Assembly: GCA_049968235.1 (NCBI GenBank)
Contig: JBMFRC010000013.1
Coordinates: 18,422 to 82,421 of the forward strand
Direction of reading: 5' to 3'
DNA length: 64,000 nt
Source of the DNA: Candidatus Hydrogenedens sp.
Lineage (GTDB): Bacteria > Hydrogenedentota > Hydrogenedentia > Hydrogenedentales > Hydrogenedentaceae
Shown here one piece after another: positions 11,591 through 45,644 of this stretch (its first letter is position 1; every line of letters starts with the position of its first letter). The position numbers and the translations under genes are program-made. Below the pieces are notes generated by a model, which searched no databases, was not told where the DNA came from, and saw nothing but the letters and a program-made list of their open reading frames with translations.

Positions 11591-11604
11591 AGGGTTAATT
11601 ATGG

Positions 11605-12399
11605 ATGGATGAATTTTTACCGACACAAATATTTGAAGTAGATGTTTTTTTGTTCTTCATCCTTGTATTGATGCGGGTATCGGGTCTTTTTGTTTCTATG
11701 CCGATTTTAGGGTCGCAGAATGTTCCCATGATGGTTAAGGCAGGATTAGCAGGTTTAATAGCAATTATCCTTGTTTCAACAATGTCTCCCTTACCCCAGG
11801 GGATTCCTCGTAGTTTTGGGGCATTTCTGGTTGTAGGTGCTTATGAATTTCTTATCGGTGTCGGGATAGGTTTCATTGTTACTCTGATGTTTTCGGCTGT
11901 CCAAATTGCCGGTGAAATCATGGACTTACAGAGTGGCTTTGGAATGATGAACATTTTCAATCCTGCTATGGAAACGCAGTTCCCTATTTTTGGTTTTTAT
12001 CTATTTATTCTCTGGGCAATGTTTTTCTTATGGATAAATGGTCATCTGGTTGTATTACAAATATTAGGGGATAGTTATAAAACGCTTCCTATAGGCTTGA
12101 TGGGGCGAATGGATAATAACTTCGGATGGGAAATAACCAAATGGGGACAAATAATGTTTATGTACGGTGTCCGTCTTGCTGGACCTATCATTGTAACAAT
12201 GATATTGGCATATGCAGTTATGGGAATATTAGGTAGGGCTATTCCTCAGATACATCTTTTAGTTATTGGCTTTCCCATTACCATTGGTTTGGGAATGATT
12301 GTTATAGGAATTTCTTTAGGTGTTTATATAGGTGTTTTCGAGGATATGGCACAGGAAATGGTTCGTGAAGTTCAACTATTTATACGAGGTTTAGGATAG
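11605..12399 (+). CDS. fliR: flagellar biosynthetic protein FliR
   Basis: 264-aa polytopic membrane protein immediately after fliQ. Confidence 0.8.
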   Translation: MDEFLPTQIFEVDVFLFFILVLMRVSGLFVSMPILGSQNVPMMVKAGLAGLIAIILVSTMSPLPQGIPRSFGAFLVVGAYEFLIGVGIGFIVTLMFSAVQIAGEIMDLQSGFGMMNIFNPAMETQFPIFGFYLFILWAMFFLWINGHLVVLQILGDSYKTLPIGLMGRMDNNFGWEITKWGQIMFMYGVRLAGPIIVTMILAYAVMGILGRAIPQIHLLVIGFPITIGLGMIVIGISLGVYIGVFEDMAQEMVREVQLFIRGLG

Positions 12400-12405
12400 T
12401 ATCTT

Positions 12406-13524
12406 ATGCCAGAAGATGTCGGAGGTGAAAAAGTATTTCCGCCTACTCCACGAAAAAAGGAGCGGGCTCGGGAAGAAGGTAATGTAACACGAAGTCAAGA
12501 ATTGACGTCTGCTATCGGCTTAAGTTCTGCTATGGTGGCATTATGGTTTATTGCACCTTTGACTTTTCAACATTTATTAAATGTAACAAAACATTACTTT
12601 GAGGAACCCTGGCAATCTATTTCTGATGCTTCTGAACTTCAATCTTTGATGCTGGAAGTTGGAATTTATATTGGGATAGGTGCTTTGCCTTATATCTTAA
12701 TTATGATGTCTGCAGGTCTGGCTATTGCTTACGCACAGGTGGGCTTACTCTGGACAGGAAAACCTCTTATTCCAAAATTAAATCGAATAAATCCTATTTC
12801 CGGGTTTAATCGGTTTTTTTCTCTACGGGCTTTATACGAGTTGGGGAAAAACATTGCGAAACTGGCTCTTTTATTGGTTATGGTTTATTATGCCCTTCGC
12901 AATCGCTGGACAGAACTCATCCTTCTTCCGAATTACTCTATCGTTGATATTTTATATGTTAGCGGTGAACTATTTCTTGCGGTATGGTGGCGTATAACTC
13001 TTGTTATGTTGGTTCTGGGTATAGCGGATTACGGATTTCAATGGTGGCAACGTGAACAGGATTTGCGTATGACAGTTCGTGAGATGCGGGAAGAAATGAA
13101 AGAGATGGAAGGAGACCCGGCAATAAAAAGACGTGTTCGTCAGATGCAACGGCAAATTGCTTATCAACGAATGTTACGAGAAGTACCCAAAGCAGATGTT
13201 ATCATAACGAACCCAACAGAATTTGCTGTTGCCTTACAATACGATATGAATACAATGCCTGCACCCATCGTGATAGCGAAAGGTGCGAGACTTATAGCCG
13301 ACCGAATCCGCGAAATTGCAGTTCGGCACCAGGTCCCGATTGTGCAGAAACCAGAACTTGCACGGACCTTGTATAAAACGGTTGAGGTCGGTCAAACCGT
13401 CCCTGAAAATTTATTCCGTGCAGTGGCGGAAGTATTAGCCTTCGTATATCGCATCGACCGCAGAGAGGAAAAGCAAAAAGAGCGTCAAGAATTTTTATTA
13501 AAAGAAAACCGTAAAACAGCATAG
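12406..13524 (+). CDS. flhB: flagellar export gate protein FlhB (autocleavage site variant NPTE)
   Basis: 4 TM helices plus cytoplasmic domain with NPTEFAVAL in place of the canonical NPTH. Confidence 0.85.
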   Translation: MPEDVGGEKVFPPTPRKKERAREEGNVTRSQELTSAIGLSSAMVALWFIAPLTFQHLLNVTKHYFEEPWQSISDASELQSLMLEVGIYIGIGALPYILIMMSAGLAIAYAQVGLLWTGKPLIPKLNRINPISGFNRFFSLRALYELGKNIAKLALLLVMVYYALRNRWTELILLPNYSIVDILYVSGELFLAVWWRITLVMLVLGIADYGFQWWQREQDLRMTVREMREEMKEMEGDPAIKRRVRQMQRQIAYQRMLREVPKADVIITNPTEFAVALQYDMNTMPAPIVIAKGARLIADRIREIAVRHQVPIVQKPELARTLYKTVEVGQTVPENLFRAVAEVLAFVYRIDRREEKQKERQEFLLKENRKTA

Positions 13525-13532
13525 GATAGGAT

Positions 13533-15629
13533 ATGGCGGTAGCACCGGCAACACGCGTTCAACCGACAAATCTCTGGAATCTGGCACGCAGTCCAGACAT
13601 CGCACTGGCTATCTGCGTTGTCGGAGTACTGGTAGTGCTTATTATTCCTATTCCAAAAGTACTGATGGATTTACTATTAACATTAAATATTTCTCTTTCT
13701 GTGGTAGTGCTTTTGTCTTCCATGTATCTGCAAAGGGCAGTTGATTTTTCAATTTTCCCGTCATTATTGCTCATTCTTACGCTATTCCGACTAAGTCTAA
13801 ATGTGGCTTCAACTCGATTAATTCTAGCTCAGGCAGATGCGGGTTCGGTCATTCGTGCTTTCGGAACTTTCGTTACTTATGGGAATATCTTTGTTGGTAT
13901 TGTAATTTTTATTATACTCGTTGTTATTCAGTTTGTTGTAATTACTCGAGGAGCAACGCGTATTTCGGAAGTTGCAGCACGGTTTACCTTAGATGCAATG
14001 CCCGGTAAACAGATGGGTGTTGACTCCGATTTAAATGCAGGACTCATAACAGAAGAACAGGCGAGACAACGGCGACATGACATTGAGAGGGAAGCAGACT
14101 TTTATGGAGCTATGGATGGTGCTACAAAATTTGTTCGTGGCGATGCTATAGCAGGGCTTATTATTACCATCATTAATATCTCCGTAGGGCTTGTCATTGG
14201 CGTGTTAATGAACGGTATGTCTTTAGCCGATGCGGCTCGGATATATACACAACTCACTATTGGTGATGGTCTGGTTTCGCAAATTCCTGCGTTGATGATT
14301 TCTACCGCAGCAGGTCTGGTTGTTACACGCACCGTGTCAGAAGAAACCAGTTTAGGTGCAGATTTTACTATTCAATTCAGTCGTTATCCACGAGCATTAG
14401 CCGTCTCTGCAGGTTTATTAGCACTTTTCGGTATCGTACCCGGTATGCCTTTTGGTCCGTTTATTATAGTTGCATTTGTGCTTGGATTTATTGCATATAT
14501 GTCCGTTCAGGTCCAAAGAGAAAAAGAAGCAAAAGCAAAACAAGAAGAGGAACTTACTAAAAAGGCAAAAGAGAAACCAGAAAGTCCCACAGAACGAGCG
14601 GAAGCATTATTAACTATCGACCCCATTAAGGTTGAATTGGGTTTTGCTCTTATAAAATTAGCAGACCGCTCTCAAGGAGGAGATTTGCTATCTCGCGTTC
14701 AAAAAATTCGTGAGCAGATGGCATTGCAAATGGGCTTTGTTGTTCCTGTTGTTCGCATTGTAGACAATCTTCTATTGAAGCCCAATCAATATAGTATTAA
14801 AATTCGTGAAGCAACGGTAGGTTCCTATGAATTACTTCCCGACCATTACCTCGCTATGAATCCCGGAATTGTTGATAAGAATATACAGGGGATTGAGACA
14901 ACGGAACCGGCTTTTGGGCTTCCGGCACTATGGGTCCCTGCAAGTCAGAAAGAACAGGCAGAAAGTGCGGGATATACCGTGGTAGAACCGTCTGCGGTGC
15001 TGGCAACACACCTTTCTGAAATTCTTTCTACCCATGCCGGGGAATTGTTAACCCGTGAAGAAGTGCAACGATTGTTAAAACTATTAAAACAGACTTCCCC
15101 CACTGTGGTCGATGAACTTATACCGAACATTCTCTCATATGGTGAAGTTCAGAAGGTATTGCAAAATTTACTTCGTGAACGAGTGTCTATTCGTAATCTC
15201 GAAGTTATATGTGAGGTTTTGTGTGATTATGGTCCGAGGACCAAAGATACCGATGTATTAACGGAGTATGTTCGTCATGCACTGGCGAGAACCATTTGTG
15301 CACCGCTTGTAGATGAAAACAATACACTGCGAATTGTTACGCTTTCTCCTGCATTGGAGCAGGAAATATTAGATGCTGTAAAAAGAAGTGAAGGAGGTGA
15401 ATATGTCCCTGTTTCGCCTCAGCGTTCACAACAGATTTGTGAAAATACAGCTAAAACTATTCAGCGTCTTGTGTTGGAAGGGTACGAACCTATCGTAGTT
15501 TGCACGGCTAATGTGCGCCGGTTTCTATACCGAATTTTAGAACGAAAATTACCTAAAGTTCGTGTTCTTTCGTATAATGAGATAGATAGCTCAGTTAAAG
15601 TCGAGATTGAAGGACAAATCGAAGTCTAA
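13533..15629 (+). CDS. flhA: flagellar export gate protein FlhA
   Basis: 698 aa, FHIPEP region (ITRGATRISEVAARFTLDAMPGKQM) and large cytoplasmic domain. Confidence 0.9.
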   Translation: MAVAPATRVQPTNLWNLARSPDIALAICVVGVLVVLIIPIPKVLMDLLLTLNISLSVVVLLSSMYLQRAVDFSIFPSLLLILTLFRLSLNVASTRLILAQADAGSVIRAFGTFVTYGNIFVGIVIFIILVVIQFVVITRGATRISEVAARFTLDAMPGKQMGVDSDLNAGLITEEQARQRRHDIEREADFYGAMDGATKFVRGDAIAGLIITIINISVGLVIGVLMNGMSLADAARIYTQLTIGDGLVSQIPALMISTAAGLVVTRTVSEETSLGADFTIQFSRYPRALAVSAGLLALFGIVPGMPFGPFIIVAFVLGFIAYMSVQVQREKEAKAKQEEELTKKAKEKPESPTERAEALLTIDPIKVELGFALIKLADRSQGGDLLSRVQKIREQMALQMGFVVPVVRIVDNLLLKPNQYSIKIREATVGSYELLPDHYLAMNPGIVDKNIQGIETTEPAFGLPALWVPASQKEQAESAGYTVVEPSAVLATHLSEILSTHAGELLTREEVQRLLKLLKQTSPTVVDELIPNILSYGEVQKVLQNLLRERVSIRNLEVICEVLCDYGPRTKDTDVLTEYVRHALARTICAPLVDENNTLRIVTLSPALEQEILDAVKRSEGGEYVPVSPQRSQQICENTAKTIQRLVLEGYEPIVVCTANVRRFLYRILERKLPKVRVLSYNEIDSSVKVEIEGQIEV

Positions 15630-16942
15630 TGGGAAATAAATTTTTAAAAATACGATGCAAACATTTAAGTGAGGTAGCCAACAAGATACATGAATTGTTC
15701 GGTCCACACGCCATCGTTGTTGGAACACAGGAAGTATATGAAAAAGGGATACGAGGCTGGTTCGGACAAAAAACTTATGAGGTAACTGTTTCCATACCGG
15801 AAACAAATGCGACAGAGGAACGAAAAAAATCTGTTATTGAAAAGAAATATCTCGAACATTCCGCTTCACCTGTTGTAGAGGATGAAACAAAGAAGAAAAA
15901 AATTGAAGAATTTGAGCGTATCATTCGTGAGACACAACAGCGATTGAAACAAAAACCTATCACGGAAGGGGAAAGCATAATTCCCCAGAAAGCAAAGGTT
16001 TCCGGCGAAACAGAAACACCTGTGCTTCCTTTCCCTAAAGAAAAATTACGAGAAGCACCTCCTCGAGAAGATATTGTAAAAGCATTACGAGAGATTAGGG
16101 AACTCTTACAGGTTATGTCCGTAGAAACTGCACCAACAGGAATACCTAATGAAACAATTCCCTTTTATAAAGACCTTGTCCAGCAGGGAATGTCTAAACG
16201 GTTATCTGCCGATTTGATACATACTGTCCTACAAAATATGAGTCCGGAACATGCACGCGACCCAAAAATATTTATTGAACGCCTGGCTCTGGAATTAAGA
16301 AAACGAATTGTTACCACCAACGGTATTCCGGTTTGTAGCGGTGTCCCACGATGGATTGTCTTTTGTGGTCCTACAGGCGTCGGGAAAACCACATCCCTTG
16401 CAAAAATATCCGCTCACTTTGCCATTCATGAAAAAGTGCGTGTAGCCCTTGCCTCCACAGATACCTATCGTGTTGGGGCAACCGAACAACTTAAAATTTA
16501 CGCACAAATAATTGGTGTCCCTCTAAAAATTATTGATGACAAGAAAACCGCATGGGAAACAATGCAGGAATACTCAAAATATGACCTGATATTTTTAGAC
16601 ACCGCCGGCAATAGTCCTTTCAATACACGACAAGTAAAGGAACTTCGCGAGATATTACAGATAATAAAACCCTATGAGACGATTCTTGTCCTGGGAGCAC
16701 ATACACCCTTAGAAGATTTGAGATACAGTGTTGCCGGTTTTTCTTCTCTCAATCCGACAAGTCTCGTTTTTACAAAACTGGATGAAACACGCCGTTTCGG
16801 CTCTATGTTAAGTTTAATTTTAGAAACAGGCTTGCCTGTGAGTTACCTTACACATGGACAAAATGTTCCGGATGATTTTACTCTGGCAACTCCGGGCGGA
16901 ATTGTTGAATTACTAATAGAAGGGAAAAGAAATCGTGGCTGA
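15629..16942 (+). CDS. flhF: flagellar biosynthesis SRP-type GTPase FlhF
   Basis: G1 GPTGVGKTT, DTAG, TKLDET motifs; TAATG overlap with flhA. Confidence 0.8.
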   Translation: MGNKFLKIRCKHLSEVANKIHELFGPHAIVVGTQEVYEKGIRGWFGQKTYEVTVSIPETNATEERKKSVIEKKYLEHSASPVVEDETKKKKIEEFERIIRETQQRLKQKPITEGESIIPQKAKVSGETETPVLPFPKEKLREAPPREDIVKALREIRELLQVMSVETAPTGIPNETIPFYKDLVQQGMSKRLSADLIHTVLQNMSPEHARDPKIFIERLALELRKRIVTTNGIPVCSGVPRWIVFCGPTGVGKTTSLAKISAHFAIHEKVRVALASTDTYRVGATEQLKIYAQIIGVPLKIIDDKKTAWETMQEYSKYDLIFLDTAGNSPFNTRQVKELREILQIIKPYETILVLGAHTPLEDLRYSVAGFSSLNPTSLVFTKLDETRRFGSMLSLILETGLPVSYLTHGQNVPDDFTLATPGGIVELLIEGKRNRG

Positions 16943-17807
16943 CCAGGCAGAAAAATTAAGGAAATTAGCAGGACAAACAAAAAAACAATGTCGTGTCATT
17001 GCCATTACCAGCGGTAAAGGCGGTGTTGGGAAAACCAGTGTCAGTGTGAATCTGGCTCTGGCTCTGGCAACACAGGGAGCCCGTGTCGTTCTTGTGGATA
17101 CCGATTTGGGGTTGGGCAATGTCGAGGTTTTAATGGGTCTGCACTCGTTTTACAATCTGGCTCATGTAATTGAAGGGACAAAAACCTTAGAAGAAGTAGT
17201 CATAAAAGCACCCTTAGGGCTGGAAGTAGTACCAGGTTCGTCGGGACTATCCCGCATTGCAGACCTTGTGGACCGTGACCGTGAACGATTAGTCGAAGCA
17301 CTAATGTCCCTTTGTGAACGAAGTGATTTCTTGCTTTTAGACACCATGGCAGGAATTGGGAAAAATACCGTTTCATTTTGCACCTCTGCTGATGAGGTGC
17401 TGTTAGTAACCACACCCGAACCCTCTTCGATTGTAGACGCTTACGCTATGCTAAAAACTATCCATTATCAGAGAAGCGATGCCGTTATAAAGTTGATTGT
17501 AAATATGGTACTGAACTCTGCACAGGCACAAGCAGTAGCAACTAAATTAACAAATGTGGCACAACAATATTTAGGGCGTGGTTTAATCTATCTCGGACAT
17601 ATTGTTCGTGATACTCATGTCAACCAATCCATTATGCAAAGTCAGCCCTTCTTTATTGCCTATCCAAATGCCTCTGCAAGTCGTTGTGTTGAAGCAGTAT
17701 CACAACGACTATTCTATCAAGCACCTGCTATAGAACCTAAAAAGAAATTGGGGTTCATGAAACGATTAGCACAGAACTTCGGCTGGGTTGTAGGTGGCGA
17801 AATATAG
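16935..17807 (+). CDS. flhG: MinD-like ATPase FlhG/FleN (GTG start)
   Basis: deviant Walker A SGKGGVGKTS; 8-nt overlap with flhF. Confidence 0.75.
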   Translation: MADQAEKLRKLAGQTKKQCRVIAITSGKGGVGKTSVSVNLALALATQGARVVLVDTDLGLGNVEVLMGLHSFYNLAHVIEGTKTLEEVVIKAPLGLEVVPGSSGLSRIADLVDRDRERLVEALMSLCERSDFLLLDTMAGIGKNTVSFCTSADEVLLVTTPEPSSIVDAYAMLKTIHYQRSDAVIKLIVNMVLNSAQAQAVATKLTNVAQQYLGRGLIYLGHIVRDTHVNQSIMQSQPFFIAYPNASASRCVEAVSQRLFYQAPAIEPKKKLGFMKRLAQNFGWVVGGEI

Positions 17808-29694: not shown

Positions 29695-32388
29695 ATGAGT
29701 AGTTCTGATTATAAAAATGAGATGCAAGAACAAATCAGTGCAATGACTTTTCCGGATGAAGAATGGATTGATGCATTAAAAGCCTATCTGGAAGAACGAG
29801 GTCCTCAGGCAACAGCAAAGTTGATTCGAAGACTTCAGGATTATACTTACCTTTTAGGTATTCGCAAGCCCTGCCCCGCAACTACGCCGTATGTTAATTC
29901 CATTCCTGTATCGGAACAGCCGGAATATCCAGGTAATCGTGAATTAGAACGAATTATTAAATCATATATCCGCTGGAATGCAATGGCAATGGTAGTTCGT
30001 GCAAACCGCGAAGCAGATGGTATTGGGGGGCATATATCTACTTATGCTTCTGTAGCCACCCTATATGAAGTAGGATTTAACCATTTTTTCAAGGCACGAA
30101 CTGAAGACTACGGTGGTGATTTAATTTATTTTCAGGGACATGCTTCACCGGGAATATATGCACGAGCTTACTTAGAGGGACGGCTTTCCGAGAATGACCT
30201 AAAAAACTTTCGACGCGAATTAAATAAAGGAGGAGGCTTGCCGTCATATCCACATCCACGACTTATGCCGGGATTCTGGCAATTCCCAACCGTTTCTATG
30301 GGACTGGGTCCTATTATGGCAATATATCAGGCACGGTTTAACAAATATTTAGAGAATCGGGGTTTGAAGCCTAAAAATGGTGGATATGTTTGGGCATTTT
30401 TGGGAGATGGCGAGACCGATGAGCCGGAAACATTAGGTGCTATTGGTTTAGCCAGTCGCGAGAAATTAGATAACCTAATTTTCGTCATCAACTGTAACTT
30501 ACAACGTTTAGATGGTCCTGTTCGTGGCAATGGAAAAATTATACAGGAGTTGGAAGCCATATTCCGCGGAGCAGGCTGGAATGTAATTAAAGTGGTTTGG
30601 GGTAGTGATTGGGACCCGCTATTTGAGAAGGATGAACATGGTTTATTGGTAAACGCATTAGGGGATATTGTTGATGGTGAGTATCAGAAATTTTCTGTTT
30701 CATCCGGGGAATATATTCGCAAAAAAATGATAGAACATGAACCGCGTCTGGCTCCGTATCTCGAACAGGTTTCAGATATTCAATTACGCCAATTGCGTAG
30801 GGGTGGACATGACCCGGTAAAGGTATATTCTGCGTATTATCATGCGTTACAAACACAAGGGACTCCTACGGTAATATTGGCAAAGACAATCAAAGGATAT
30901 GGACTTGGTGAAAGTGGCGAAGGGAAGAATATAACCCATCAACAAAAGAAACTCAATGAAGATGAACTACGCGAATTTCGGGCTCGCTTCGGGATTCCTG
31001 TCTCCGATGATGAGATTGCCTTCGCCCCGTTTTGTAAACCACCGGAAGACCATCCCGCTATGATATACCTCCAGGAACGACGCAAGGCATTAGGCGGGTA
31101 TTTGCCCCATCGCGATGTATTGGCACCGCCTTTACCTGCACCTGAAAACGAGCTGTTTGATGAGTTTTATAAAGGGACACCTCGTCCCGTCTCCACAACG
31201 ATGGCATTTGTTTCTATTTTACGAAAATTATTACAACATGAACGGATTGGCAAATTAATCGTTCCTATTGTGCCAGACGAAGCACGCACTTTCGGTATGG
31301 AAGGATTATTCCGTCAAATAGGAATTTATTCTTCGCAAGGACAAAAATACGAACCTGTAGATTCCGAATCGGTTCTGTATTACAAAGAAACAACAGATGG
31401 GCAAATCCTTGAAGAAGGGATTTCAGAAGCAGGTTCAATGGCTTCTTTTATTTCTGCAGGAACCGCTTATGCCAGTCATGGAATTAATACCATTCCTTTT
31501 TTCATCTTCTATTCTATGTTCGGATTTCAGCGGATTGGTGATTTAATCTGGGCATCTGCAGATATGAAAGTACGTGGATTTCTCGTAGGTGGCACTGCGG
31601 GCAGAACAACCCTTGCCGGGGAAGGTCTGCAACATCAGGATGGACACAGTCACCTCCTCGCTATGTCTGTTCCCTGCCTTCGTGCATATGACCCCGCGTA
31701 CGCCTACGAAATAGCCATTATTGTGCAGGAAGGCATTCGTAGCATGTATGAAAAGCAGGAACCGGTATTTTATTATTTAACTGTGGGCAATGAAAACTAC
31801 ACCATGCCACCTATCCCGGCGGGGAAAAAAATACGCGATGGGATTATTAAAGGTTTATATCTACTTCGACCTTCTTCCTTAAAAAAATCAAAAATGAAAG
31901 TAAATTTATTAGGCAGTGGTTCATTACTTAATGAAGCACTAAAAGCACAGTTCGTTCTCGAAGAGGAATTTAATATCTCTGCAGATGTATGGAGTGCCAC
32001 GAGTTATAAAATGCTCCGTGAAAATGCCCTGGAAACAGAACGCTGGAATCAGCTACATCCAATATCTACCAAAAAAATTCCGTATGTAACCGAATGCCTG
32101 AACAACAATGCACATGCAACCATTGCCGTTTCCGATTATGTAAAACTTGTTCCGGACAGTATATCCCGATGGGTTCCGCAAAGGTTTATATCCTTAGGAA
32201 CAGATGGTTTTGGGCGTTCCGATACACGAGAAGCCCTGCGACATTACTTTGAGGTAGATAGCCGGTATATCATACTATCTGCCCTGTCTGCACTGGCTCA
32301 AGATAAGAAAATAGATACAAATATCGTAAAAAAATACATGCGGTCCGCAGATATACCTGCAAATAAAAAGTCTCCTATGGACTTATAA
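29695..32388 (+). CDS. aceE: pyruvate dehydrogenase E1 component, homodimeric type
   Basis: 897 aa; ThDP-binding GDGE..N block (FLGDGETDEPE...NCN) and overall AceE architecture; GAGGGGA SD. Confidence 0.9.
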   Translation: MSSSDYKNEMQEQISAMTFPDEEWIDALKAYLEERGPQATAKLIRRLQDYTYLLGIRKPCPATTPYVNSIPVSEQPEYPGNRELERIIKSYIRWNAMAMVVRANREADGIGGHISTYASVATLYEVGFNHFFKARTEDYGGDLIYFQGHASPGIYARAYLEGRLSENDLKNFRRELNKGGGLPSYPHPRLMPGFWQFPTVSMGLGPIMAIYQARFNKYLENRGLKPKNGGYVWAFLGDGETDEPETLGAIGLASREKLDNLIFVINCNLQRLDGPVRGNGKIIQELEAIFRGAGWNVIKVVWGSDWDPLFEKDEHGLLVNALGDIVDGEYQKFSVSSGEYIRKKMIEHEPRLAPYLEQVSDIQLRQLRRGGHDPVKVYSAYYHALQTQGTPTVILAKTIKGYGLGESGEGKNITHQQKKLNEDELREFRARFGIPVSDDEIAFAPFCKPPEDHPAMIYLQERRKALGGYLPHRDVLAPPLPAPENELFDEFYKGTPRPVSTTMAFVSILRKLLQHERIGKLIVPIVPDEARTFGMEGLFRQIGIYSSQGQKYEPVDSESVLYYKETTDGQILEEGISEAGSMASFISAGTAYASHGINTIPFFIFYSMFGFQRIGDLIWASADMKVRGFLVGGTAGRTTLAGEGLQHQDGHSHLLAMSVPCLRAYDPAYAYEIAIIVQEGIRSMYEKQEPVFYYLTVGNENYTMPPIPAGKKIRDGIIKGLYLLRPSSLKKSKMKVNLLGSGSLLNEALKAQFVLEEEFNISADVWSATSYKMLRENALETERWNQLHPISTKKIPYVTECLNNNAHATIAVSDYVKLVPDSISRWVPQRFISLGTDGFGRSDTREALRHYFEVDSRYIILSALSALAQDKKIDTNIVKKYMRSADIPANKKSPMDL

Positions 32389-32413
32389 CACATAATTAAA
32401 GAAGGAATAGACC

Positions 32414-33739
32414 ATGCCAAAGGAATTCCGATTACCCTCGCTGGGGGAAAATGTTGCAGAAGCAACTATTGGTAAGATTTTAGTAAAGGTTGGAGATATT
32501 ATCCGTAAAGGACAGACTGTCTTGGAAATTGAAACGGATAAAGCGGTGGCAGAAATACCCTCTTCGCAGGAGGGTAAAATACTAGAAATCCATGTGAAGG
32601 AAGGGCAAAAAGTAAAGCCCGGCATCTTAATTTTTACTATAGAGGAGATAACAGGGACGAGCACACCACCTCCTGAGCCTGTTTCTACACCTGAAGGGGG
32701 AAAAGTATCTCCACCAAAACAAGAAAGGCTTGTTTCTCCTCTTGTCGAAAAACCTGTGCCATTACGACCTTCTTCAGTTTCGGTAGTCGCAAGTCAAAAA
32801 GCAACATCGAATATTCCCATTTTGGCTTCCCCATCGGTTCGTAGATTGGCACGCGAATTAGGAGTTTCACTTGAAGAAGTCCCTGCATCGGACACGTCCG
32901 GAAAAATCTCTACGGAAGATGTTATTGCGTATCATAAGAGAAAGACAGAAAATATAGCGATAGTGGAAACGGAGATAAGCCATGATATGCCCACATCTGA
33001 ATCTGCAGAAGAGATAGATATATCATCTTCCAAAGATTCCTGGGGACCTGTGGTTATTGAACCGATGAGTACCATTCGCAAAAAAACCGCGGAACAAATG
33101 ATGCGTAGTTGGTCTGCTCCACACGTAACCCATTTTGATAAAGCGAATATAACGCAATTGGAAGAACTCCGTGAGGCATGGTCAAAGAAAATTCAATCCG
33201 CCGGCGGTAGATTAAGCGTACTCATTTTTACATTGAAAGTCGTTGCCGAAGCATTAAAAAAATTCCCAAAGTTTAATACCAGCATTGACCTCGAAAAAGA
33301 ACAAATTATCTATAAAAAATATTATCATATCGGTGTTGCGGTTGATACAGAATACGGACTTCTGGTTCCTGTCCTGCGAAATGTGGATAAGAAGTCAATT
33401 AAAGAACTTTCTATTGAACTCCCAAAATTAGCGGAGAAAGCCCGACAACGGAAATTAACTTTAGAAGAATTGCAGGGTGCCACATTCACTATAAGTAATT
33501 TAGGCGGTTTAGGGGGTACTGGCTTTACACCGATTATAAATGCGCCACAGGTGGCTATTTTGGGGATGTCCCGTTCCAGTATGGAACCTATATACCAAAA
33601 TGGTAGTTTTATTCCACAACTCATGCTACCTTTAAGTTTGTCGTATGACCATCGTGTTATCGATGGAGCAGAGTCCGCTCGTTTTGTTCGCTGGATTTGT
33701 AATGCTCTTGAAAATCCATGGAATATATTTCTTGAATAA
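32414..33739 (+). CDS. aceF: dihydrolipoamide acetyltransferase E2
   Basis: single lipoyl domain (EIETDKAVAEIPS), Pro/Ser linker, E3-binding domain, catalytic DHRVIDGA. Confidence 0.85.
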   Translation: MPKEFRLPSLGENVAEATIGKILVKVGDIIRKGQTVLEIETDKAVAEIPSSQEGKILEIHVKEGQKVKPGILIFTIEEITGTSTPPPEPVSTPEGGKVSPPKQERLVSPLVEKPVPLRPSSVSVVASQKATSNIPILASPSVRRLARELGVSLEEVPASDTSGKISTEDVIAYHKRKTENIAIVETEISHDMPTSESAEEIDISSSKDSWGPVVIEPMSTIRKKTAEQMMRSWSAPHVTHFDKANITQLEELREAWSKKIQSAGGRLSVLIFTLKVVAEALKKFPKFNTSIDLEKEQIIYKKYYHIGVAVDTEYGLLVPVLRNVDKKSIKELSIELPKLAEKARQRKLTLEELQGATFTISNLGGLGGTGFTPIINAPQVAILGMSRSSMEPIYQNGSFIPQLMLPLSLSYDHRVIDGAESARFVRWICNALENPWNIFLE

Positions 33740-33767
33740 TTAAGAATTACAAACAGAAGGAGGTCTT

Positions 33768-35195
33768 ATGCCCGAAGTAATTCAAACACAGGTTGCAGTC
33801 ATTGGTGCAGGTCCGGGTGGTTATGGATGCGCCTTTATGTGTGCCGATTTAGGACTACAAACGGTTCTTATCGATGTAGAAAAGAATCCAGGCGGGACAT
33901 GCCTCTATCGAGGTTGTATCCCAACAAAATCTTTACTCCACATATCTCATGTAATTTCCAATGCGTTAGAGGCAAAAAAATTTGGCGTTCACTTCCAGAA
34001 ACCAAAATTAGATATTAATGAAATACGAAAAAATGTGCAGGGTGTCGTCGAACACTTAACCGGTGGTTTGGGTCAACTAACGAAGTTACGAAATATTAAT
34101 TATGTTCAGGGACGAGCCAGTTTCCTGGATTCAAACACATTAGAAGTTTTCTTGATGGATGGTCGAGAATTACGTATCCATGCAGAATATACTGTCATTT
34201 CTGCTGGTTCGAGACCCGCCTTATTTGGACAACCTATTGATTCGCCAGATATTATGAATTCCAATACTGCTATCAACATAGAGGATATACCCGAACGATT
34301 ACTGGTTATTGGTGGTGGATATATCGGGCTGGAATTAGGTACTGTTTATGCCACTTTAGGCTCTGAAGTAACACTCGTGGAGGTTACTGATGGACTACTC
34401 CCCGGTGTTGACCGTGATTTAGTGCGTCCTTTAGAAAAACATTTAGAAAATGTTATATATCAAATCCATTTAAAAACACTGGTCAAACAATTAAAACCGC
34501 AAAAGAAAGGTATTTCTGTTGAACTGGAAGGTGCGGAAATAAAAAAAACACAACAGATTTTTGATAAGGTTCTTGTATCAGTTGGCAGAAAACCCAATAG
34601 TAGCGGTTTAGGTTTAAAAAATACAAATGTGTCTGTGGACGAAAAAGGATTTATCCGTGTTGACGAACAAAGACACACAACTGACCCCTATATCTTTGCC
34701 ATTGGCGATGTTGCAGGAGGACCTATGTTAGCCCATAAAGCAACACATGAGGGACGAGTTGTTGCAGAGGTCATCTCCGGCAAGAATGTCGCCTTTGAAC
34801 CGCAAGCTATCCCTGCTGTTGTTTTCACTGACCCTGAAATTGCGTGGTGTGGACTTACCGAAGAACAAGCACGCTCAAAAAATATACCCGTTCAAGTATC
34901 AAGATTCCCATGGTCTGCTTCTGGCAGAGCCATGACAATGTTCCGTGGGGAGGGATTGACAAAACTCATAACCCATGCAGAAACACAACAAATTCTCGGT
35001 TTCGGTATCGTCGGAGCCAATGCTGGTGAACTTATCGGTGAAGCTACATTGGCTATTGAGATGGGTGCGACGCTCGAAGACCTCGACTTAACCATACACC
35101 CGCATCCTACTCTCAGTGAAACCATCATGGAATCTGCAGGTGCTTTACTCGGTAAAAGTACCCATGTTTACCGCAAACCCCAACGAAAAGAATAA
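33768..35195 (+). CDS. lpdA: dihydrolipoyl dehydrogenase E3
   Basis: FAD GAGPGG, redox-active GGTCLYRGCIPTK, C-terminal HPHPTLSE. Confidence 0.9.
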   Translation: MPEVIQTQVAVIGAGPGGYGCAFMCADLGLQTVLIDVEKNPGGTCLYRGCIPTKSLLHISHVISNALEAKKFGVHFQKPKLDINEIRKNVQGVVEHLTGGLGQLTKLRNINYVQGRASFLDSNTLEVFLMDGRELRIHAEYTVISAGSRPALFGQPIDSPDIMNSNTAINIEDIPERLLVIGGGYIGLELGTVYATLGSEVTLVEVTDGLLPGVDRDLVRPLEKHLENVIYQIHLKTLVKQLKPQKKGISVELEGAEIKKTQQIFDKVLVSVGRKPNSSGLGLKNTNVSVDEKGFIRVDEQRHTTDPYIFAIGDVAGGPMLAHKATHEGRVVAEVISGKNVAFEPQAIPAVVFTDPEIAWCGLTEEQARSKNIPVQVSRFPWSASGRAMTMFRGEGLTKLITHAETQQILGFGIVGANAGELIGEATLAIEMGATLEDLDLTIHPHPTLSETIMESAGALLGKSTHVYRKPQRKE

Positions 35196-35211: not shown

Positions 35212-35733
35212 CTATCCTTCATTATCGTTCATCTTATCTTCCTCATCAGGTCTTTTTATATACGTATCAATCCCATATTTATCATAAACATTAAAAATCT
35301 CCTCGCAAAACTGTATAATCCGCATATCACTTTTCTCTTTTGCTTCATTATAAAGCCTTATTATAAACCGTTTCCCAAACTCCGTTTGAGAATAATTCTT
35401 CTTTAAATAATTATTCACCGAACATAATGTTTGTCCATTTTCAACAGAATTTGTCCCTCCTTTATCCAGCGGAATCCTATGGTCCACATGTATCTCCACA
35501 CCATCTTCCCTACCCCTTACACAAACCACACAACGATAATTGTCCCTCTCAAATATTTCTTCCTTCACTGAATCAGTAAATTCAAATAACTCCCTTTTCT
35601 GAACCAAATCGGGGTCATATTTATAGACCCCTTTTTTTTCCTTTATTAGCCACCCACTTTGATGTAATTTTCGAATCCCCCACCAGGGATCTCTCGGTTT
35701 TCTCCCATACAACTTTTTATATTGTTCTTCCAC
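35212..35733 (-). CDS. HNH endonuclease (possible restriction-endonuclease remnant of an R-M pair)
   Basis: CVVC..HVDHRIP..NGQTLC HNH motif; adjacent to disrupted MTase. Confidence 0.65.
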   Translation of the reverse strand: MEEQYKKLYGRKPRDPWWGIRKLHQSGWLIKEKKGVYKYDPDLVQKRELFEFTDSVKEEIFERDNYRCVVCVRGREDGVEIHVDHRIPLDKGGTNSVENGQTLCSVNNYLKKNYSQTEFGKRFIIRLYNEAKEKSDMRIIQFCEEIFNVYDKYGIDTYIKRPDEEDKMNDNEG

Positions 35734-43272: not shown

Positions 43273-43429
43273 CCTTTTATCCCTTTATTTGATTGAATAA
43301 TTTATACTTCTTATCTATTTTACTTCAATGCTGTATGACGAATAAATCTTTTTGTAGAACTTATAGAGGAGGTGTCTATGCTTTTTTGTAAAAGAGAAGT
43401 TTTAATTGAATGTGTATAAATAAAGTAAA

Positions 43430-43458
43430 GGCACGGGGAAGTTTCGTTTCCCTGTGCC
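43430..43458 (-). terminator. rho-independent terminator downstream of the Hsp20 operon
   Basis: minus-strand RNA GGCACAGGGAA-loop-UUCCCCGUGCC followed by UUUACUUUAUUUAU. Confidence 0.55.
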
Positions 43459-43508
43459 CTTGTCCATGTTGTAATGCGGTGTAGTATTAATACGAACCTG
43501 TGTAGATA

Positions 43509-44000
43509 TTATCCGACTTTAATCTGGATACGGTGTGCTTTTGCAGATTCGCTCTTGGGCAGACGAATCTGTAAGACACCGTTTTTGTAATTTGCCTCGG
43601 CTTTCTCAGCGATAATCTCACAAGGCAAAGGAATAACGCGGGAGAAAGAACCATATTGACATTCCGCATAATAGTATGAACGGTCTTTCTTTTCCTGCTG
43701 GAATTTCTTTTCACCCCGCAGGATAAGTCTCTGCCCTTGAAGCTCAACCTTAAAATCGTTTTCAGATAAGCCGGGCATTTCTGCGTTAATAATAACTTCG
43801 TCATTGTTTTCTTCGACATCCACCGCAGGGAATGTAGTGGTATTAAACCAGTCGAAGAAAACAGGTTCATGCGTGAGCCAATTCCCCGAGTCCTTACGGG
43901 TTGTTAAGAAACGGTCAAACCAATTGTTGAGGGTTTGACGCAAATCATTTATCTTTTCTTTTATCTGGATAGGGACTAATGTGTTACGCATAAACCTCAC
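43509..44000 (-). CDS. Hsp20/alpha-crystallin family small heat shock protein (3rd of 3)
   Basis: alpha-crystallin domain, C-terminal I-x-I (IQIKV). Confidence 0.8.
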   Translation of the reverse strand: MRFMRNTLVPIQIKEKINDLRQTLNNWFDRFLTTRKDSGNWLTHEPVFFDWFNTTTFPAVDVEENNDEVIINAEMPGLSENDFKVELQGQRLILRGEKKFQQEKKDRSYYYAECQYGSFSRVIPLPCEIIAEKAEANYKNGVLQIRLPKSESAKAHRIQIKVG

Positions 44001-44056
44001 CTCCTTTTATTGTTCAAGTGGGCAGATTCGTTGTATGCGAACCTGCCCTTTTATTA

Positions 44057-44455
44057 TTAACTAACGGTAATCGGTATTTGTTTGGGTTTGGCTTCTTCTT
44101 TCTTGGGTAAGTGGATAATTAATACACCATTTTTCATTTCAGCCTTGATTTTCTCCTGGTCCGTCTTATCGCTTAACTGGAACTGACGGAAGTAAGGATA
44201 TAGGTCAAATTCCTGATAAGTCAGGTCGACATTCAAATTACTTTTTGCACCTGCTTTAATAGTCAGAATGTCGTTCTCCACCTGAATCTGGACATCCTCT
44301 TTCTGGACACCGGGCAAATCTGCGATGACAGTTAAGCCCTCGGCGGTTTCAAAGATGTCCACAGGTGGTCGGAGTGTCTTTGAACTGTCCCGTGTATCGG
44401 GAACATGTTTGGATTGTGTCTTGACGGGAATTGTTGTTTCTTTCATAGCCAACAC
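44057..44455 (-). CDS. Hsp20/alpha-crystallin family small heat shock protein (2nd of 3)
   Basis: alpha-crystallin domain. Confidence 0.8.
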   Translation of the reverse strand: MLAMKETTIPVKTQSKHVPDTRDSSKTLRPPVDIFETAEGLTVIADLPGVQKEDVQIQVENDILTIKAGAKSNLNVDLTYQEFDLYPYFRQFQLSDKTDQEKIKAEMKNGVLIIHLPKKEEAKPKQIPITVS

Positions 44456-44475
44456 CTCCTTTTTGTTATGGGTTA

Positions 44476-44940
44476 TTATTTTACACTTATTGATATTTGT
44501 TTGGGTTTTGCGGATTCGGCTTTAGGTAGAGTTAACAGAAGAATACCGTTCTTATACTCTGCTTTTACTTTGTCAGCATCTACTTCGACAGGAAGTGATA
44601 ATGTGCGGATAAATTTACCAGCACCACGCTCATTGCGATGGAATGCCTCCGGTTTTACATCCTTTATTGCAGGTTTCTCTCCTGCAATACGCACGGTATT
44701 ATTCAGCACGGAGACTTCCAACGACTCAGGGTCAATACCCGGAGCCAATGCCTCCACATAAACATTATCCTTATCCTCTGCAAGATTGACAAGAGGATAA
44801 GAGCGAGTGGAGACACCCGGCAAGAACGAGAAACGGAATGACGGGATGTCCCAGACATCCTCATTGAAAATACGGAACAAATCATCCATCTCGCGTCTGA
44901 GTTGCTCTAACTCTTGAATTGGGTCCCACCATCTTCTCAT
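44476..44940 (-). CDS. Hsp20/alpha-crystallin family small heat shock protein (1st of 3)
   Basis: alpha-crystallin domain; AAGGAGGT SD. Confidence 0.8.
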   Translation of the reverse strand: MRRWWDPIQELEQLRREMDDLFRIFNEDVWDIPSFRFSFLPGVSTRSYPLVNLAEDKDNVYVEALAPGIDPESLEVSVLNNTVRIAGEKPAIKDVKPEAFHRNERGAGKFIRTLSLPVEVDADKVKAEYKNGILLLTLPKAESAKPKQISISVK

Positions 44941-45005
44941 AGGTCATACCTCCTTTGGTTAAGGTTTACTTTTTTTCTATGTTATTCAATTTTCATATTG
45001 AATTT

Positions 45006-45021
45006 AGCAAACAGCATGCCA
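45006..45021 (-). promoter_or_regulatory. sigma-54 (-24/-12) promoter TGGCATG-N4-TTGCT driving the Hsp20 trio
   Basis: minus-strand TGGCATGCTGTTTGCT; GG and GC elements at the canonical 10-nt spacing, about 65 nt upstream of the first Hsp20 ATG. Confidence 0.55.
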
Positions 45022-45093
45022 GGTCGTAATGAACAAAAATCAATTGAAAATATGAAGGTTTATGCAGACCGTTCCTAAGACAAAAACGCTCCT

Positions 45094-45131
45094 GTTTCAT
45101 TTCTTTGCTGAAAAATGAAACATTCGTTTCA
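45094..45131. promoter_or_regulatory. candidate enhancer/UAS: overlapping inverted repeats GTTTCATT...AATGAAAC and TGAAAC-N4-GTTTCA about 75-125 nt upstream of the sigma-54 -24 element
   Basis: read directly from the sequence; position is typical of bEBP binding sites. Confidence 0.4.
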
Positions 45132-45290
45132 CTATGCTACGAAAAACCATGCCCAACCCTGGCTGATTTGTCCGACCTGTATGACCCTAAACTTAACTAC
45201 AAGATTTTAAATACAATGCAAAATATGTTATCATATGTATAATCCCTCTAAATTTATCCCATTCAGCAATATAAATCAGGTGTTTTTTTT

Positions 45291-45644
45291 ATGTGGTATC
45301 GTTCTATTCCAATTATTTTGTTGATATTATCCAATCTGTTCATGACTTACGCATGGTATGGACACTTAAAAGATTTAAAAAACAAACCTTTGTTTATGGC
45401 AATTGTATTCAGTTGGTGTGTGGCATTTTTTGAGTATTGTCTGCAAGTTCCTGCCAACCGTATCGGATTTCAGTTCCTAAATTTAAGTCAGTTAAAAGTT
45501 CTTCAAGAAGTAATTACAATGATTGTGTTTGCTATATTTTCTGTCGTATATATGAAAGAGCAAATCCGCATGGATTTTGTATGGGCATCATTATGTCTGG
45601 TCGGTGCTGTATATTTTATGTTCCGCGGTATGTTCGTTCATTAA
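45291..45644 (+). CDS. small DMT-superfamily membrane protein (DUF486-like)
   Basis: 117 aa, 4 TM helices. Confidence 0.5.
   Translation: MWYRSIPIILLILSNLFMTYAWYGHLKDLKNKPLFMAIVFSWCVAFFEYCLQVPANRIGFQFLNLSQLKVLQEVITMIVFAIFSVVYMKEQIRMDFVWASLCLVGAVYFMFRGMFVH

What the first reader, a model, noticed from the sequence alone, without database searches (positions are those of the whole stretch)
43430..45131. Three tandem Hsp20 genes under a near-consensus sigma-54 promoter with an upstream TGAAAC inverted-repeat element
The minus strand carries TGGCATG-N4-TTGCT with exact GG/GC spacing about 65 nt before the first of three consecutive alpha-crystallin genes (gaps 20 and 56 nt). About 75-125 nt further upstream lie interlocking inverted repeats (GTTTCATT...AATGAAAC; TGAAAC-ATTC-GTTTCA), located where bacterial enhancer-binding proteins bind. 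Sigma-54 control of sHSPs is known for E. coli ibpB, but a triple sHSP array with a dedicated UAS suggests a stress regulon with a specific activator, which is not encoded in this window. An 11-bp hairpin (GGGCAGGUUCG/CGAAUCUGCCC) precedes a perfect AAGGAGGTGA SD between gene 2 and gene 3 and could be a processing or stability element. The operon ends in a clean terminator at 43430-43458.
Basis: partly seen in the sequence, partly recalled or inferred. Interest (0 to 1): 0.55.

Follow-up and report, generated by a model that had tools for sequence, protein, structure and literature searches.

The report
Sigma-54-controlled triple small heat-shock operon
An uncultured Hydrogenedentota bacterium carries an operon of three small heat-shock chaperone genes that appears to be switched on by the alternative sigma factor sigma-54 and a distant activator-binding site, which extends a known kind of stress control to a new phylum.

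Summary
Three distinct Hsp20 genes lie in tandem on the minus strand. Upstream are TGGCATG-N4-TTGCT (11 of 12 consensus positions) and a perfect TGAAAC-N4-GTTTCA palindrome.

Comparison supports the sigma-54 reading:
- The window is Hydrogenedentota (96% aa identity to Ca. Hydrogenedens terephthalaticus).
- All 13 related loci fetched keep the three-gene order and the -24/-12 element; 11 keep the palindrome.
- The palindrome sits 93-94 nt from TGGCA in every locus that has it, while the promoter-to-ATG distance varies from 68 to 95 nt.
- In 234 kb of Hydrogenedentota DNA, every strong sigma-54 match and every palindrome match lies at this operon.
- Cyanobacterial and Thermaceae hsp20 loci show no such promoter.

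The hairpin between genes 2 and 3 is kept by compensatory changes and has no U-tract, so it is more likely a stability, processing or attenuation element than a terminator. No known RNA thermometer was found.

No activator or rpoN gene lies in the window or in any flank. Presence of rpoN in the genome could not be tested.

Sigma-54 control of chaperone genes is already known: E. coli ibpB, mapped promoters in Flavobacterium, predictions in Planctomycetota. This is a new member of a known kind, of modest interest.

The parts
45116..45131 (-). Upstream activator-type site: the perfect palindrome TGAAAC-GAAT-GTTTCA, centred about -128 from the inferred transcription start.
   Evidence: It is unique in the window, with 0 of 100 shuffles giving a match. 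It is conserved as TG[A/C]AAC-N4-GTTT[C/T]A in 11 of 13 related loci, always 93-94 nt upstream of TGGCA. All matches in 234 kb of Hydrogenedentota DNA lie at this operon.
45094..45099 (-). Additional TGAAAC half-site, 32 nt downstream of the start of the palindrome (about -101).
   Evidence: Read from the sequence. It is kept as TGAAAC, TGCAAC or TGGGAC in most loci but not in the L005 and L007 lineages.
45006..45021 (-). Sigma-54-type promoter TGGCATG-CTGT-TTGCT, with GG at -25/-24 and GC at -13/-12.
   Evidence: It is the only match in the window with at most 1 mismatch. TGGCA..N..TTGC is invariant in all 14 loci. All 11 matches scoring at least 11 of 12 in 234 kb lie upstream of hsp20 in the right orientation. 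No cyanobacterial or Thermaceae hsp20 locus scores above 9 of 12.
44985..44995 (-). Conserved block TGAAAATTGAA at the inferred transcription start (+1 is about 44995, inferred). Its function is unknown.
   Evidence: It is conserved in 13 of 14 loci; L093 differs. The start position is inferred from the usual sigma-54 geometry and has not been mapped.
44941..44995 (-). Inferred 5' UTR of about 55 nt. It is A-rich and mostly unstructured, with the Shine-Dalgarno sequence AAAGGAGG.
   Evidence: Folding shows only a weak 4-5 bp helix (CCUU/AAGG) touching the Shine-Dalgarno sequence, and that helix is not conserved in L004-L006. There is no Rfam thermometer match.
44476..44940 (-). hsp20 gene 1 (154 aa). 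The C-terminus ends ...ISISVK, an IXI motif.
   Evidence: Pfam HSP20 at 2.2e-21. Orthologues are 76-96% identical in L001-L007.
44057..44446 (-). hsp20 gene 2 (129 aa from the ATG, with a short N-terminal arm). The C-terminus ends ...IPITVS.
   Evidence: Pfam HSP20 at 1.3e-21. The ATG lies 8 nt after GGAGG and is conserved.
44020..44048 (-). Intercistronic hairpin (11 bp stem, 7-nt loop, -19.4 kcal/mol) starting 8 nt after the gene 2 stop. No U-tract follows it.
   Evidence: A hairpin is present in all 14 loci at -12.5 to -27 kcal/mol. 88% of cells are paired against 24-47% for slid controls, and 6 of 10 pairs show compensatory changes.
43509..43991 (-). hsp20 gene 3 (160 aa from the ATG). The C-terminus ends ...IQIKVG.
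   Evidence: Pfam HSP20 at 6.1e-21. Orthologues are 65-93% identical.
43473..43498 (-). Conserved, predicted single-stranded 3' UTR block GGTTCGTATTAATACTACACCGCATT. Its function is unknown.
   Evidence: It is unique in the window. It is conserved in most related loci whatever the downstream gene, and absent in L002 and L101. Indels of 3 and 5 nt rule out coding.
43417..43459 (-). Intrinsic-terminator-like hairpin plus T-rich tail that ends the operon.
   Evidence: Folded. An equivalent strong hairpin plus T-run follows gene 3 in every related locus, with different sequences. The strict consensus scan did not call it.

Best explanation
This is a three-gene small heat-shock protein operon (h1-h2-h3) of a Hydrogenedentota bacterium. 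It is transcribed from a sigma-54-dependent promoter.

Proposed mechanism:
- RNA polymerase carrying sigma-54 sits in a closed complex on TGGCATG-N4-TTGCT.
- An AAA+ enhancer-binding protein encoded elsewhere in the genome binds as a dimer to the palindrome TGAAAC-N4-GTTTCA, centred about 128 nt upstream of the start. It probably also uses the extra TGAAAC half-site.
- The protein assembles into an oligomer, reaches the promoter by looping the A/T-rich spacer, and uses ATP to open the promoter.
- The transcript has a short, unstructured leader, so control is mainly at transcription.
- A stable hairpin just after gene 2, with no U-tract, most likely protects or partly ends the h1-h2 segment, so that genes 1 and 2 are made in excess over gene 3.
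- A true terminator follows gene 3.

What is shown: the sequence elements, their conservation, their fixed spacing and their exclusive association with this operon.

What is inferred: sigma-54 dependence, activator binding, the start site, the inducing signal (presumably heat or protein-damage stress) and the role of the hairpin.
For: Promoter
- It matches 11 of 12 consensus positions with exact GG-N10-GC spacing and is unique in the window.
- It is invariant in 14 of 14 Hydrogenedentota-type loci although the flanking intergenic sequence has diverged.
- All 11 strong matches in 234 kb lie upstream of h1 in the right orientation.
- hsp20 loci from cyanobacteria (about 19) and Thermaceae (4) have no match of 10 of 12 or better, whereas 7 of 7 Hydrogenedentota, 5 of 5 Riflebacteria-type and 6 Planctomycetota loci do. 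These two control groups lack sigma-54 to my knowledge.

Palindrome
- It is unique in the window.
- It is conserved in 12 of the 14 loci, representing 8 distinct lineages. The gap to TGGCA is 93-94 nt in every one, while the promoter-to-ATG distance ranges from 68 to 95 nt.
- The L006 variant sits 83 nt away, one helical turn less.
- It stays with hsp20 when the upstream gene differs.

Other promoters and leader control
- No convincing sigma-70 promoter lies near h1.
- No RNA thermometer was found.

Hairpin
- Covariation and presence in all 14 loci.

Precedents
- The E. coli ibpB sigma-54 promoter (PMC2831329).
- Mapped sigma-54 promoters at groESL, dnaK, grpE-dnaJ, htpG, clpB and lon in Flavobacterium psychrophilum (PMC9723704).
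- Predicted enrichment of sigma-54 promoters at IbpA-type and other chaperone genes in Planctomycetota and Bacteroidota (PMC12316311).
- NorR-annotated sigma-54 activators reported in most Hydrogenedentota genomes (PMC10866078).
Against: - Neither rpoN nor any activator gene was seen in the window, in about 170 kb of related flanks, or in the roughly 8 kb of extra sequence beyond the start of the window that one of the two end look-ups added. Presence of sigma-54 in this genome is therefore inferred, not shown.
- No start site or expression data exist.
- Two divergent relatives, L004 and L006, keep the promoter but have a rearranged upstream repeat (GTTTCA-N3-TGAAAA, or N6 spacing). The exact recognition rule is therefore uncertain.
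- Only one full palindrome plus a half-site is present, where many activators use two or more full sites.
- The inducing signal is a guess based on the gene products.
Confidence: 0.8

Rival explanations
1. The palindrome is an operator for a classical heat-shock repressor (in the manner of HrcA/CIRCE, HspR/HAIR or CtsR). The operon is read from an ordinary sigma-70-type promoter, and the -24/-12 match is coincidental.
For: Heat-shock operons in many bacteria are controlled by a repressor bound to an inverted repeat. A single match with at most 1 mismatch in 64 kb is not rare by itself (expectation 0.35).
Against: - The palindrome lies about 110-125 nt upstream of the -24 element, too far to block a promoter near the gene.
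- No good sigma-70 promoter lies between it and h1. Three weak hits were found where shuffles give a mean of 6, and none is close to h1.
- GG and GC are invariant in 14 loci, with fixed spacing between palindrome and promoter.
- Control phyla without sigma-54 lack the motif.
Confidence: 0.05
2. The palindrome regulates the divergent neighbour, a DMT-superfamily DUF486 membrane protein at 45291-45644 (+), and not the hsp20 operon.
For: The palindrome lies in a shared 350-nt divergent intergenic region, 160-175 nt from the neighbour's ATG. A sigma-70-like site with a TG extension at 45206-45234 (+) could be that gene's promoter.
Against: In L093, L125 and L146 the upstream neighbour is a different gene, or lies in the same orientation, yet the palindrome is kept at 93-94 nt from the hsp20 promoter.
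Confidence: 0.03
3. Expression is controlled mainly after transcription, by an RNA thermometer in the leader or by the intercistronic hairpin acting as a temperature-sensitive block.
For: Many bacterial sHSP genes carry ROSE, fourU or related thermometers (my own knowledge). A small CCUU/AAGG helix can touch the h1 Shine-Dalgarno sequence in some loci.
Against: - No Rfam family matches.
- The leader is A-rich and essentially unstructured, and the small helix is absent in L004-L006.
- The h2-h3 hairpin never includes the h3 Shine-Dalgarno sequence.
Confidence: 0.07
4. The hairpin after gene 2 is a leaky transcription terminator, a relic of an ancestral two-gene h1-h2 operon, and not an RNA stabiliser or processing site.
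For: In Riflebacteria-type, Desulfuromonadales and Pirellulales loci the operon consists of h1-h2 only. The stem is GC-rich and lies directly after the stop codon.
Against: None of the 14 loci has a U-tract after the stem; the downstream sequence is A-rich. This rival concerns one part only and is compatible with the main explanation.
Confidence: 0.3

Closest known systems
E. coli ibpAB: the sigma-54 promoter in front of ibpB (Kuczynska-Wisnik 2001, as cited and used as a ChIP control in PMC2831329)
   Same: A small heat-shock gene in a tandem sHSP operon is preceded by a -24/-12 promoter bound by sigma-54 holoenzyme.
   Different: - In E. coli the sigma-54 promoter is internal and secondary to a sigma-32 promoter, matches the consensus less well (TGGTAAATGGTTTGCT), and I know of no assigned activator site.
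- Here it is the only recognisable promoter, lies in front of the whole operon, and has a conserved palindrome at a fixed distance.
- The proteins are not IbpA/IbpB orthologues: NCBIfam scores are 22-26 bits against cut-offs of 207-212.
Sigma-54-dependent protein-quality-control genes of Bacteroidota (Flavobacterium psychrophilum SM4 promoters, PMC9723704)
   Same: Chaperone and protease genes have mapped transcription starts behind -24/-12 promoters, and the activator is unlinked and unidentified.
   Different: - A different phylum.
- The table as read lists groESL, lon, dnaK, grpE-dnaJ, htpG and clpB, not an hsp20 operon.
- I saw no upstream site described there.
- Here only the sHSP operon could be examined, so a wider regulon is not shown.
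Predicted sigma-54 promoters at IbpA-type (COG0071), GroEL/ES, GrpE and DnaJ/K genes in Planctomycetota and Bacteroidota (PMC12316311)
   Same: The same association of sigma-54 promoters with small heat-shock genes. My own scan finds it again in Planctomycetota loci L017, L019, L020, L032, L043 and L044.
   Different: Hydrogenedentota, Riflebacteria and Omnitrophota do not appear in that study or its supplements. That survey scored promoters only, without upstream sites or operon anatomy.
Two-component sHSP systems such as IbpA/IbpB (my own knowledge)
   Same: Divergent sHSP paralogues are encoded side by side and presumably work together. The h1-h2 pair is conserved across several phyla.
   Different: There are three paralogues here, in a fixed order, and they are unrelated to the enterobacterial duplication. 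Co-operation among them is inferred only from conserved linkage.
PspF/psp phage-shock system (my own knowledge)
   Same: A stress operon devoted to protein or membrane damage, driven by sigma-54 and one dedicated activator bound at an upstream site.
   Different: pspF lies next to its target and is controlled by PspA. Here no activator is linked and the sensing mechanism is unknown.

Membership tests
sigma-54-dependent promoter | GG and GC dinucleotides exactly 10 nt apart within TGGCAC-N5-TTGCW | tested here: met
   TGGCATGCTGTTTGCT matches 11 of 12 positions.
sigma-54-dependent promoter | The element is conserved in orthologous positions and is specific to lineages that have sigma-54 | tested here: met
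   It is present in 14 of 14 Hydrogenedentota-type loci. All strong matches in 234 kb lie at this operon. No match of 10 of 12 or better occurs in cyanobacterial or Thermaceae hsp20 loci.
sigma-54-dependent promoter | The genome encodes sigma-54 (rpoN) | not testable with these tools
   No RpoN box was found in the window or in any locus held. The only indirect evidence is NorR-annotated activators reported in Hydrogenedentota genomes (PMC10866078).
sigma-54-dependent promoter | Transcription starts about 11-12 nt downstream of the GC dinucleotide and needs an activator ATPase | not testable with these tools
   This needs 5' end mapping and genetics.
enhancer-binding-protein upstream activating site | An inverted repeat about 80-150 nt upstream of the promoter, conserved and in a fixed helical phase | tested here: met
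   The palindrome is centred about -128. The gap is 93-94 nt in 12 of 12 loci that have it, and 83 nt in L006.
enhancer-binding-protein upstream activating site | Bound by a sigma-54 activator | not testable with these tools
   No activator was identified. Those near hsp20 in L008 and L017 are 5-7 kb away and are unrelated in their N-terminal domains.
small heat-shock protein (alpha-crystallin, Hsp20) | Alpha-crystallin domain above the Pfam threshold | tested here: met
   PF00011 scores 75-77 bits against a cut-off of 20.8 for all three proteins.
small heat-shock protein (alpha-crystallin, Hsp20) | C-terminal I-X-I/V oligomerisation motif | tested here: met
   Read from the translations: ISI, IPI and IQI near the C-termini.
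IbpA / IbpB equivalogs | Score above the NCBIfam equivalog cut-off | tested here: not met
   22-26 bits against cut-offs of 207-212.
known RNA thermometers (ROSE, fourU, other Rfam families) | Covariance-model match, or a conserved helix that sequesters the Shine-Dalgarno sequence | tested here: not met
   There is no Rfam match at gathering score or at E up to 5, apart from a spurious 25-bit rli47 hit. No conserved helix covers the Shine-Dalgarno sequence.
intrinsic terminator (after gene 3) | GC-rich stem-loop followed by a U-run | tested here: met
   Shown by folding, and conserved as a structure in all related loci. The strict scan missed it because of one mismatch in the stem.
intrinsic terminator (hairpin after gene 2) | A U-run after the stem | tested here: not met
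   The sequence after the stem is A-rich in all 14 loci.

The most novel reading that the evidence does not exclude
Hydrogenedentota, and perhaps Riflebacteria, Omnitrophota and Planctomycetota, may use sigma-54 with a still unknown, unlinked stress-sensing activator as their switch for an ancient multi-paralogue sHSP module.

In addition, the conserved single-stranded block in the 3' UTR, followed by the terminator, could be released as a heat-induced small regulatory RNA derived from the 3' UTR. That would couple the chaperone operon to a post-transcriptional regulon.
Probability: 0.15. Interest if true: 0.55.

Novelty: new member of a known kind. Interest (0 to 1): 0.3.

Why it matters
It adds a candidate phylum with no cultured model to the growing list of lineages in which sigma-54, and not a sigma-32-type factor or a repressor, drives chaperone genes.

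It also gives a concrete, testable cis-element: a 16-bp palindrome at a fixed 93-94 nt from the promoter. This could be used to fish out the unknown stress-sensing activator, which to my knowledge has not been identified in Bacteroidota or Planctomycetota either.

The conserved h1-h2(-h3) order across phyla suggests a multi-component sHSP system worth biochemical study. None of this overturns current understanding.

Tried and rejected
1. RNA thermometer: Rfam at gathering score and at permissive thresholds, plus folding of eight leaders, found nothing conserved.

2. Activator or rpoN nearby:
- A motif scan (GAFTGA, RpoN box) of the window and of all 160 or so loci gave hits only in L008, L017 and L065, none next to hsp20.
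- Pfam on all large window ORFs found none.

3. The L008 and L017 activators as a common heat-shock activator: they align only over the AAA+ and HTH parts, and their N-terminal domains are unrelated. One looks NtrC-like and the other does not. Rejected.

4. Regulon discovery:
- A metagenome scan for palindrome plus promoter with a 75-105 nt gap gave 97 hits.
- The only recurrent low-GC hits were hsp20 operons. The rest look like chance or unrelated systems.
- The scan could not see regulon members with other spacings or with degenerate sites.

5. Extending the window by looking up its end proteins: this gave only a 3.6-kb contig and a 30-kb contig, with no regulator.

6. Other sigma-54 promoters in the window, including upstream of the flagellar export operon: none.

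7. Targets of the conserved 3' UTR block within the window: none.

8. The 3' UTR block as coding read-through: rejected because of 3- and 5-nt indels between relatives.

9. Literature searches for rpoN in Hydrogenedentes or Hydrogenedentota: nothing direct.

10. A shared upstream motif across phyla: Riflebacteria-type loci have a different GC-rich palindrome and other lineages show no common site.
Full report
**What is there**

On the minus strand between 45131 and 43417 the window carries a compact unit. In order it contains:
- a perfect palindrome TGAAAC-GAAT-GTTTCA (45131-45116);
- a further TGAAAC (45099-45094);
- the motif TGGCATG-CTGT-TTGCT (45021-45006);
- a leader of about 55 nt;
- three Hsp20 genes (44940-44476, 44446-44057, 43991-43509);
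- a terminator-like hairpin with a T-rich tail (about 43459-43417).

All three proteins hit Pfam HSP20 far above threshold. They end in I-X-I motifs and are only 31-37% identical to each other. They are therefore old paralogues, not recent copies.

With the conserved ATG starts the gaps are 29 and 65 nt.

**Is it more than chance?**

The promoter motif is the only match in the window with at most one mismatch to the sigma-54 consensus. The expectation is 0.35 per 64 kb on both strands. Scaled to one 350-nt intergenic region in one orientation, that is about 0.001 (my own scaling). The palindrome never occurred in 100 shuffles. The combined pattern of promoter plus palindrome also has an expectation of zero.

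**Origin**

A scan of species-representative genomes with gene 1 found its best matches in Candidatus Hydrogenedens terephthalaticus (96% aa identity) and other Hydrogenedentota MAGs.

Two of the loci, L004 and L007, are labelled Nitrospirales. They carry the same operon at about 80% identity, so I treat them as the same lineage. The window has 38% G+C.

**Comparative test of the promoter and the upstream site**

I collected 13 further Hydrogenedentota-type loci: seven from genomes (L001-L007) and six from a metagenome scan (L093, L096, L101, L125, L145, L146). Together with the window they represent about ten distinct lineages.
- All keep the order h1-h2-h3.
- All keep TGGCA-N6-TTGC, although the surrounding intergenic DNA has diverged to near-random.
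- Twelve of the 14 loci keep the palindrome as TG[A/C]AAC-N4-GTTT[C/T]A.
- In every one of those 12 the distance from the palindrome to TGGCA is 93 or 94 nt, whereas the promoter-to-ATG distance ranges from 68 to 95 nt across the 14 loci.
- L006 has a variant repeat 83 nt away, one helical turn less. L004 has a rearranged repeat (GTTTCA-N3-TGAAAA).
- The palindrome stays with the operon where the upstream neighbour is a different gene. This rules out a role dedicated to the divergent DUF486 gene.
- In 234 kb of Hydrogenedentota DNA, on both strands, all 11 matches of at least 11 of 12 to the sigma-54 consensus lie upstream of h1 in the correct orientation. All palindrome matches lie there too.

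As a control I scored the best GG-N10-GC match upstream of hsp20 in all 80 genome loci.
- Hydrogenedentota: 7 of 7 score 10-12 of 12.
- Riflebacteria/Ozemobacter type: 5 of 5.
- Planctomycetota: 6 loci.
- Zixibacteria: 1 locus.
- None of about 19 cyanobacterial and 4 Thermaceae loci exceeds 9. Those two groups are known to lack sigma-54 (my own knowledge).

**What it is not**
- No convincing sigma-70-type promoter precedes h1.
- No Rfam family, and so no known RNA thermometer, matches the region.
- The leaders are A-rich and unstructured, and only a weak, non-conserved 4-bp helix touches the Shine-Dalgarno sequence.

**The activator and sigma-54 itself**

No ORF with a GAFTGA loop or an RpoN box exists in the window. 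Pfam on all large ORFs shows none. The flanks of the 13 related loci have none either.

Activators lie 5-7 kb from hsp20 in a Desulfuromonadales locus and a Phycisphaerae locus. They share only the AAA+ and HTH parts, so they do not point to a common regulator.

I could not scan a whole Hydrogenedentota genome, so rpoN remains unverified. The only support is a genome survey stating that all but one of the Hydrogenedentota and Sumerlaeota representatives encode a NorR-annotated regulator, which is a sigma-54 activator family (PMC10866078).

A metagenome-wide scan for palindrome plus promoter with a 75-105 nt gap returned 97 places. The only recurrent hits with this lineage's composition were hsp20 operons. 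Within that search space the circuit looks dedicated to this operon and does not look like a broad regulon.

**The intercistronic hairpin**

A stable stem-loop (-12.5 to -27 kcal/mol) starts 6-10 nt after the h2 stop in all 14 loci. It leaves the h3 Shine-Dalgarno sequence free.

The stems differ in sequence but not in pairing. Examples are GGGCAGGTTCG/CGAATCTGCCC in the window, GGGACAGTCC/GGACTGTCCC in L004 and GGGGATAGTCT/AGACTATCCCC in L006. On the alignment 88% of cells pair, against 24-47% when the partner is slid, and 6 of 10 pairs show changes on both sides.

No U-run follows in any locus. I therefore read it as an RNA-level element: a barrier to 3' exonucleases, a processing site, or a weak attenuator. 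Any of these would raise h1 and h2 relative to h3. This fits the observation that several other phyla have only the h1-h2 pair. The function is inferred.

**Comparison with what is known**

- E. coli ibpB has a sigma-54 promoter that binds the holoenzyme (PMC2831329).
- In Flavobacterium psychrophilum, mapped starts place -24/-12 promoters in front of groESL, lon, dnaK, grpE-dnaJ, htpG and clpB, with unidentified activators (PMC9723704).
- A 2025 survey predicts enrichment of sigma-54 promoters at IbpA-type, GroEL/ES, GrpE and DnaJ/K genes in Planctomycetota and Bacteroidota (PMC12316311). It does not cover Hydrogenedentota.

The present case is therefore a new member of a known kind. It does add several things:
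- a defined upstream site with fixed phasing;
- a sole promoter in front of the whole operon, not an internal secondary one;
- a three-paralogue operon whose order is shared with Omnitrophota, Phycisphaerae, Calditrichota-type and Syntrophobacteraceae loci;
- two conserved RNA-level features.

The proteins are generic Hsp20s, not IbpA/IbpB orthologues.

**Unexplained leftovers**

- A block TGAAAATTGAA at the inferred start site is conserved in 13 of 14 loci.
- A 26-nt block in the 3' UTR (43498-43473) is predicted to be single-stranded. It is conserved in most loci whatever the downstream gene and is followed by the terminator. This arrangement resembles small RNAs derived from 3' UTRs. I found no target in the window and have no expression data.

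**Verdict**

The sigma-54 and activator-site interpretation is well supported by phylogenetic footprinting, but remains untested experimentally and lacks direct evidence for rpoN. Novelty is modest and interest is 0.3.

Noticed in passing
window 43473-43498 (-): A 26-nt block in the 3' UTR (GGTTCGTATTAATACTACACCGCATT) lies between the gene 3 stop and the terminator. It is predicted to be single-stranded. It is conserved in most related loci whatever gene follows, and is absent in L002 and L101. The layout resembles a small RNA derived from a 3' UTR.
   Followed up: partly
window 44985-44995 (-): The block TGAAAATTGAA lies exactly at the inferred transcription start. It is conserved in 13 of 14 loci, including the divergent L004 and L006, but not in L093. 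No structure or known motif explains it.
   Followed up: partly
L008-L014, L016, L017, L019-L021 (hsp20 at about 10001 in most): The h1-h2 pair, and in Omnitrophota, Phycisphaerae, a Caldithrix-labelled MAG and Syntrophobacteraceae the h1-h2-h3 triple, is kept in the same order across phyla. In many of these loci it lies behind a sigma-54-type promoter. This looks like an old multi-paralogue sHSP module.
   Followed up: partly
L010-L013, about 62-85 nt upstream of TGGCAC: Riflebacteria/Ozemobacter-type loci carry a different, GC-rich palindrome (GACGTCGC-N2-GCGACGTC) upstream of the sigma-54 promoter of their h1-h2 operon. The upstream site is therefore lineage-specific.
   Followed up: partly
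L085, L088, L090, L117, L120, L128, L148 (peat metagenome contigs): A recurrent pair, TGCAACTTCCGTTTCA followed 97-98 nt later by TTGGCATTCTGTTTGC, lies upstream of small lipoprotein-like ORFs in contigs of 53-60% G+C. It is probably an unrelated sigma-54 circuit with a similar half-site.
   Followed up: no
L102, L112, L155 (and L095): Marine contigs share TGCAACGAATGTTTTA followed 83 nt later by TTGGCACGATATTTGC, upstream of a conserved 62-aa ORF (MIEKNIEWEINTT...).
   Followed up: no
L004 and L007: These MAG contigs are labelled 'uncultured Nitrospirales' but carry the Hydrogenedentota-type operon at about 80% aa identity, with the same promoter and hairpin anatomy. The taxonomic labels may be wrong, or the contigs may be mis-binned.
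   Followed up: no
window about 11320-17807 (+): A flagellar export cluster: FliQ/FliR/FlhB (by identity to L179), FlhA (FHIPEP), an FlhF-like SRP GTPase and a MinD/FlhG-like ATPase. It is preceded by an AT-rich region with a sigma-70-like promoter and no sigma-54 promoter.
   Followed up: partly
window 29695-35195 (+): A complete pyruvate/2-oxoacid dehydrogenase complex (E1, E2, E3). An HNH endonuclease ORF lies next to it at 35212-35733 (-).
   Followed up: no
window 44411-44485 (-): A 25-bit match to the Listeria sRNA rli47 model (gathering score 200) lies across the end of gene 1 and the start of gene 2. It is spurious.
   Followed up: yes
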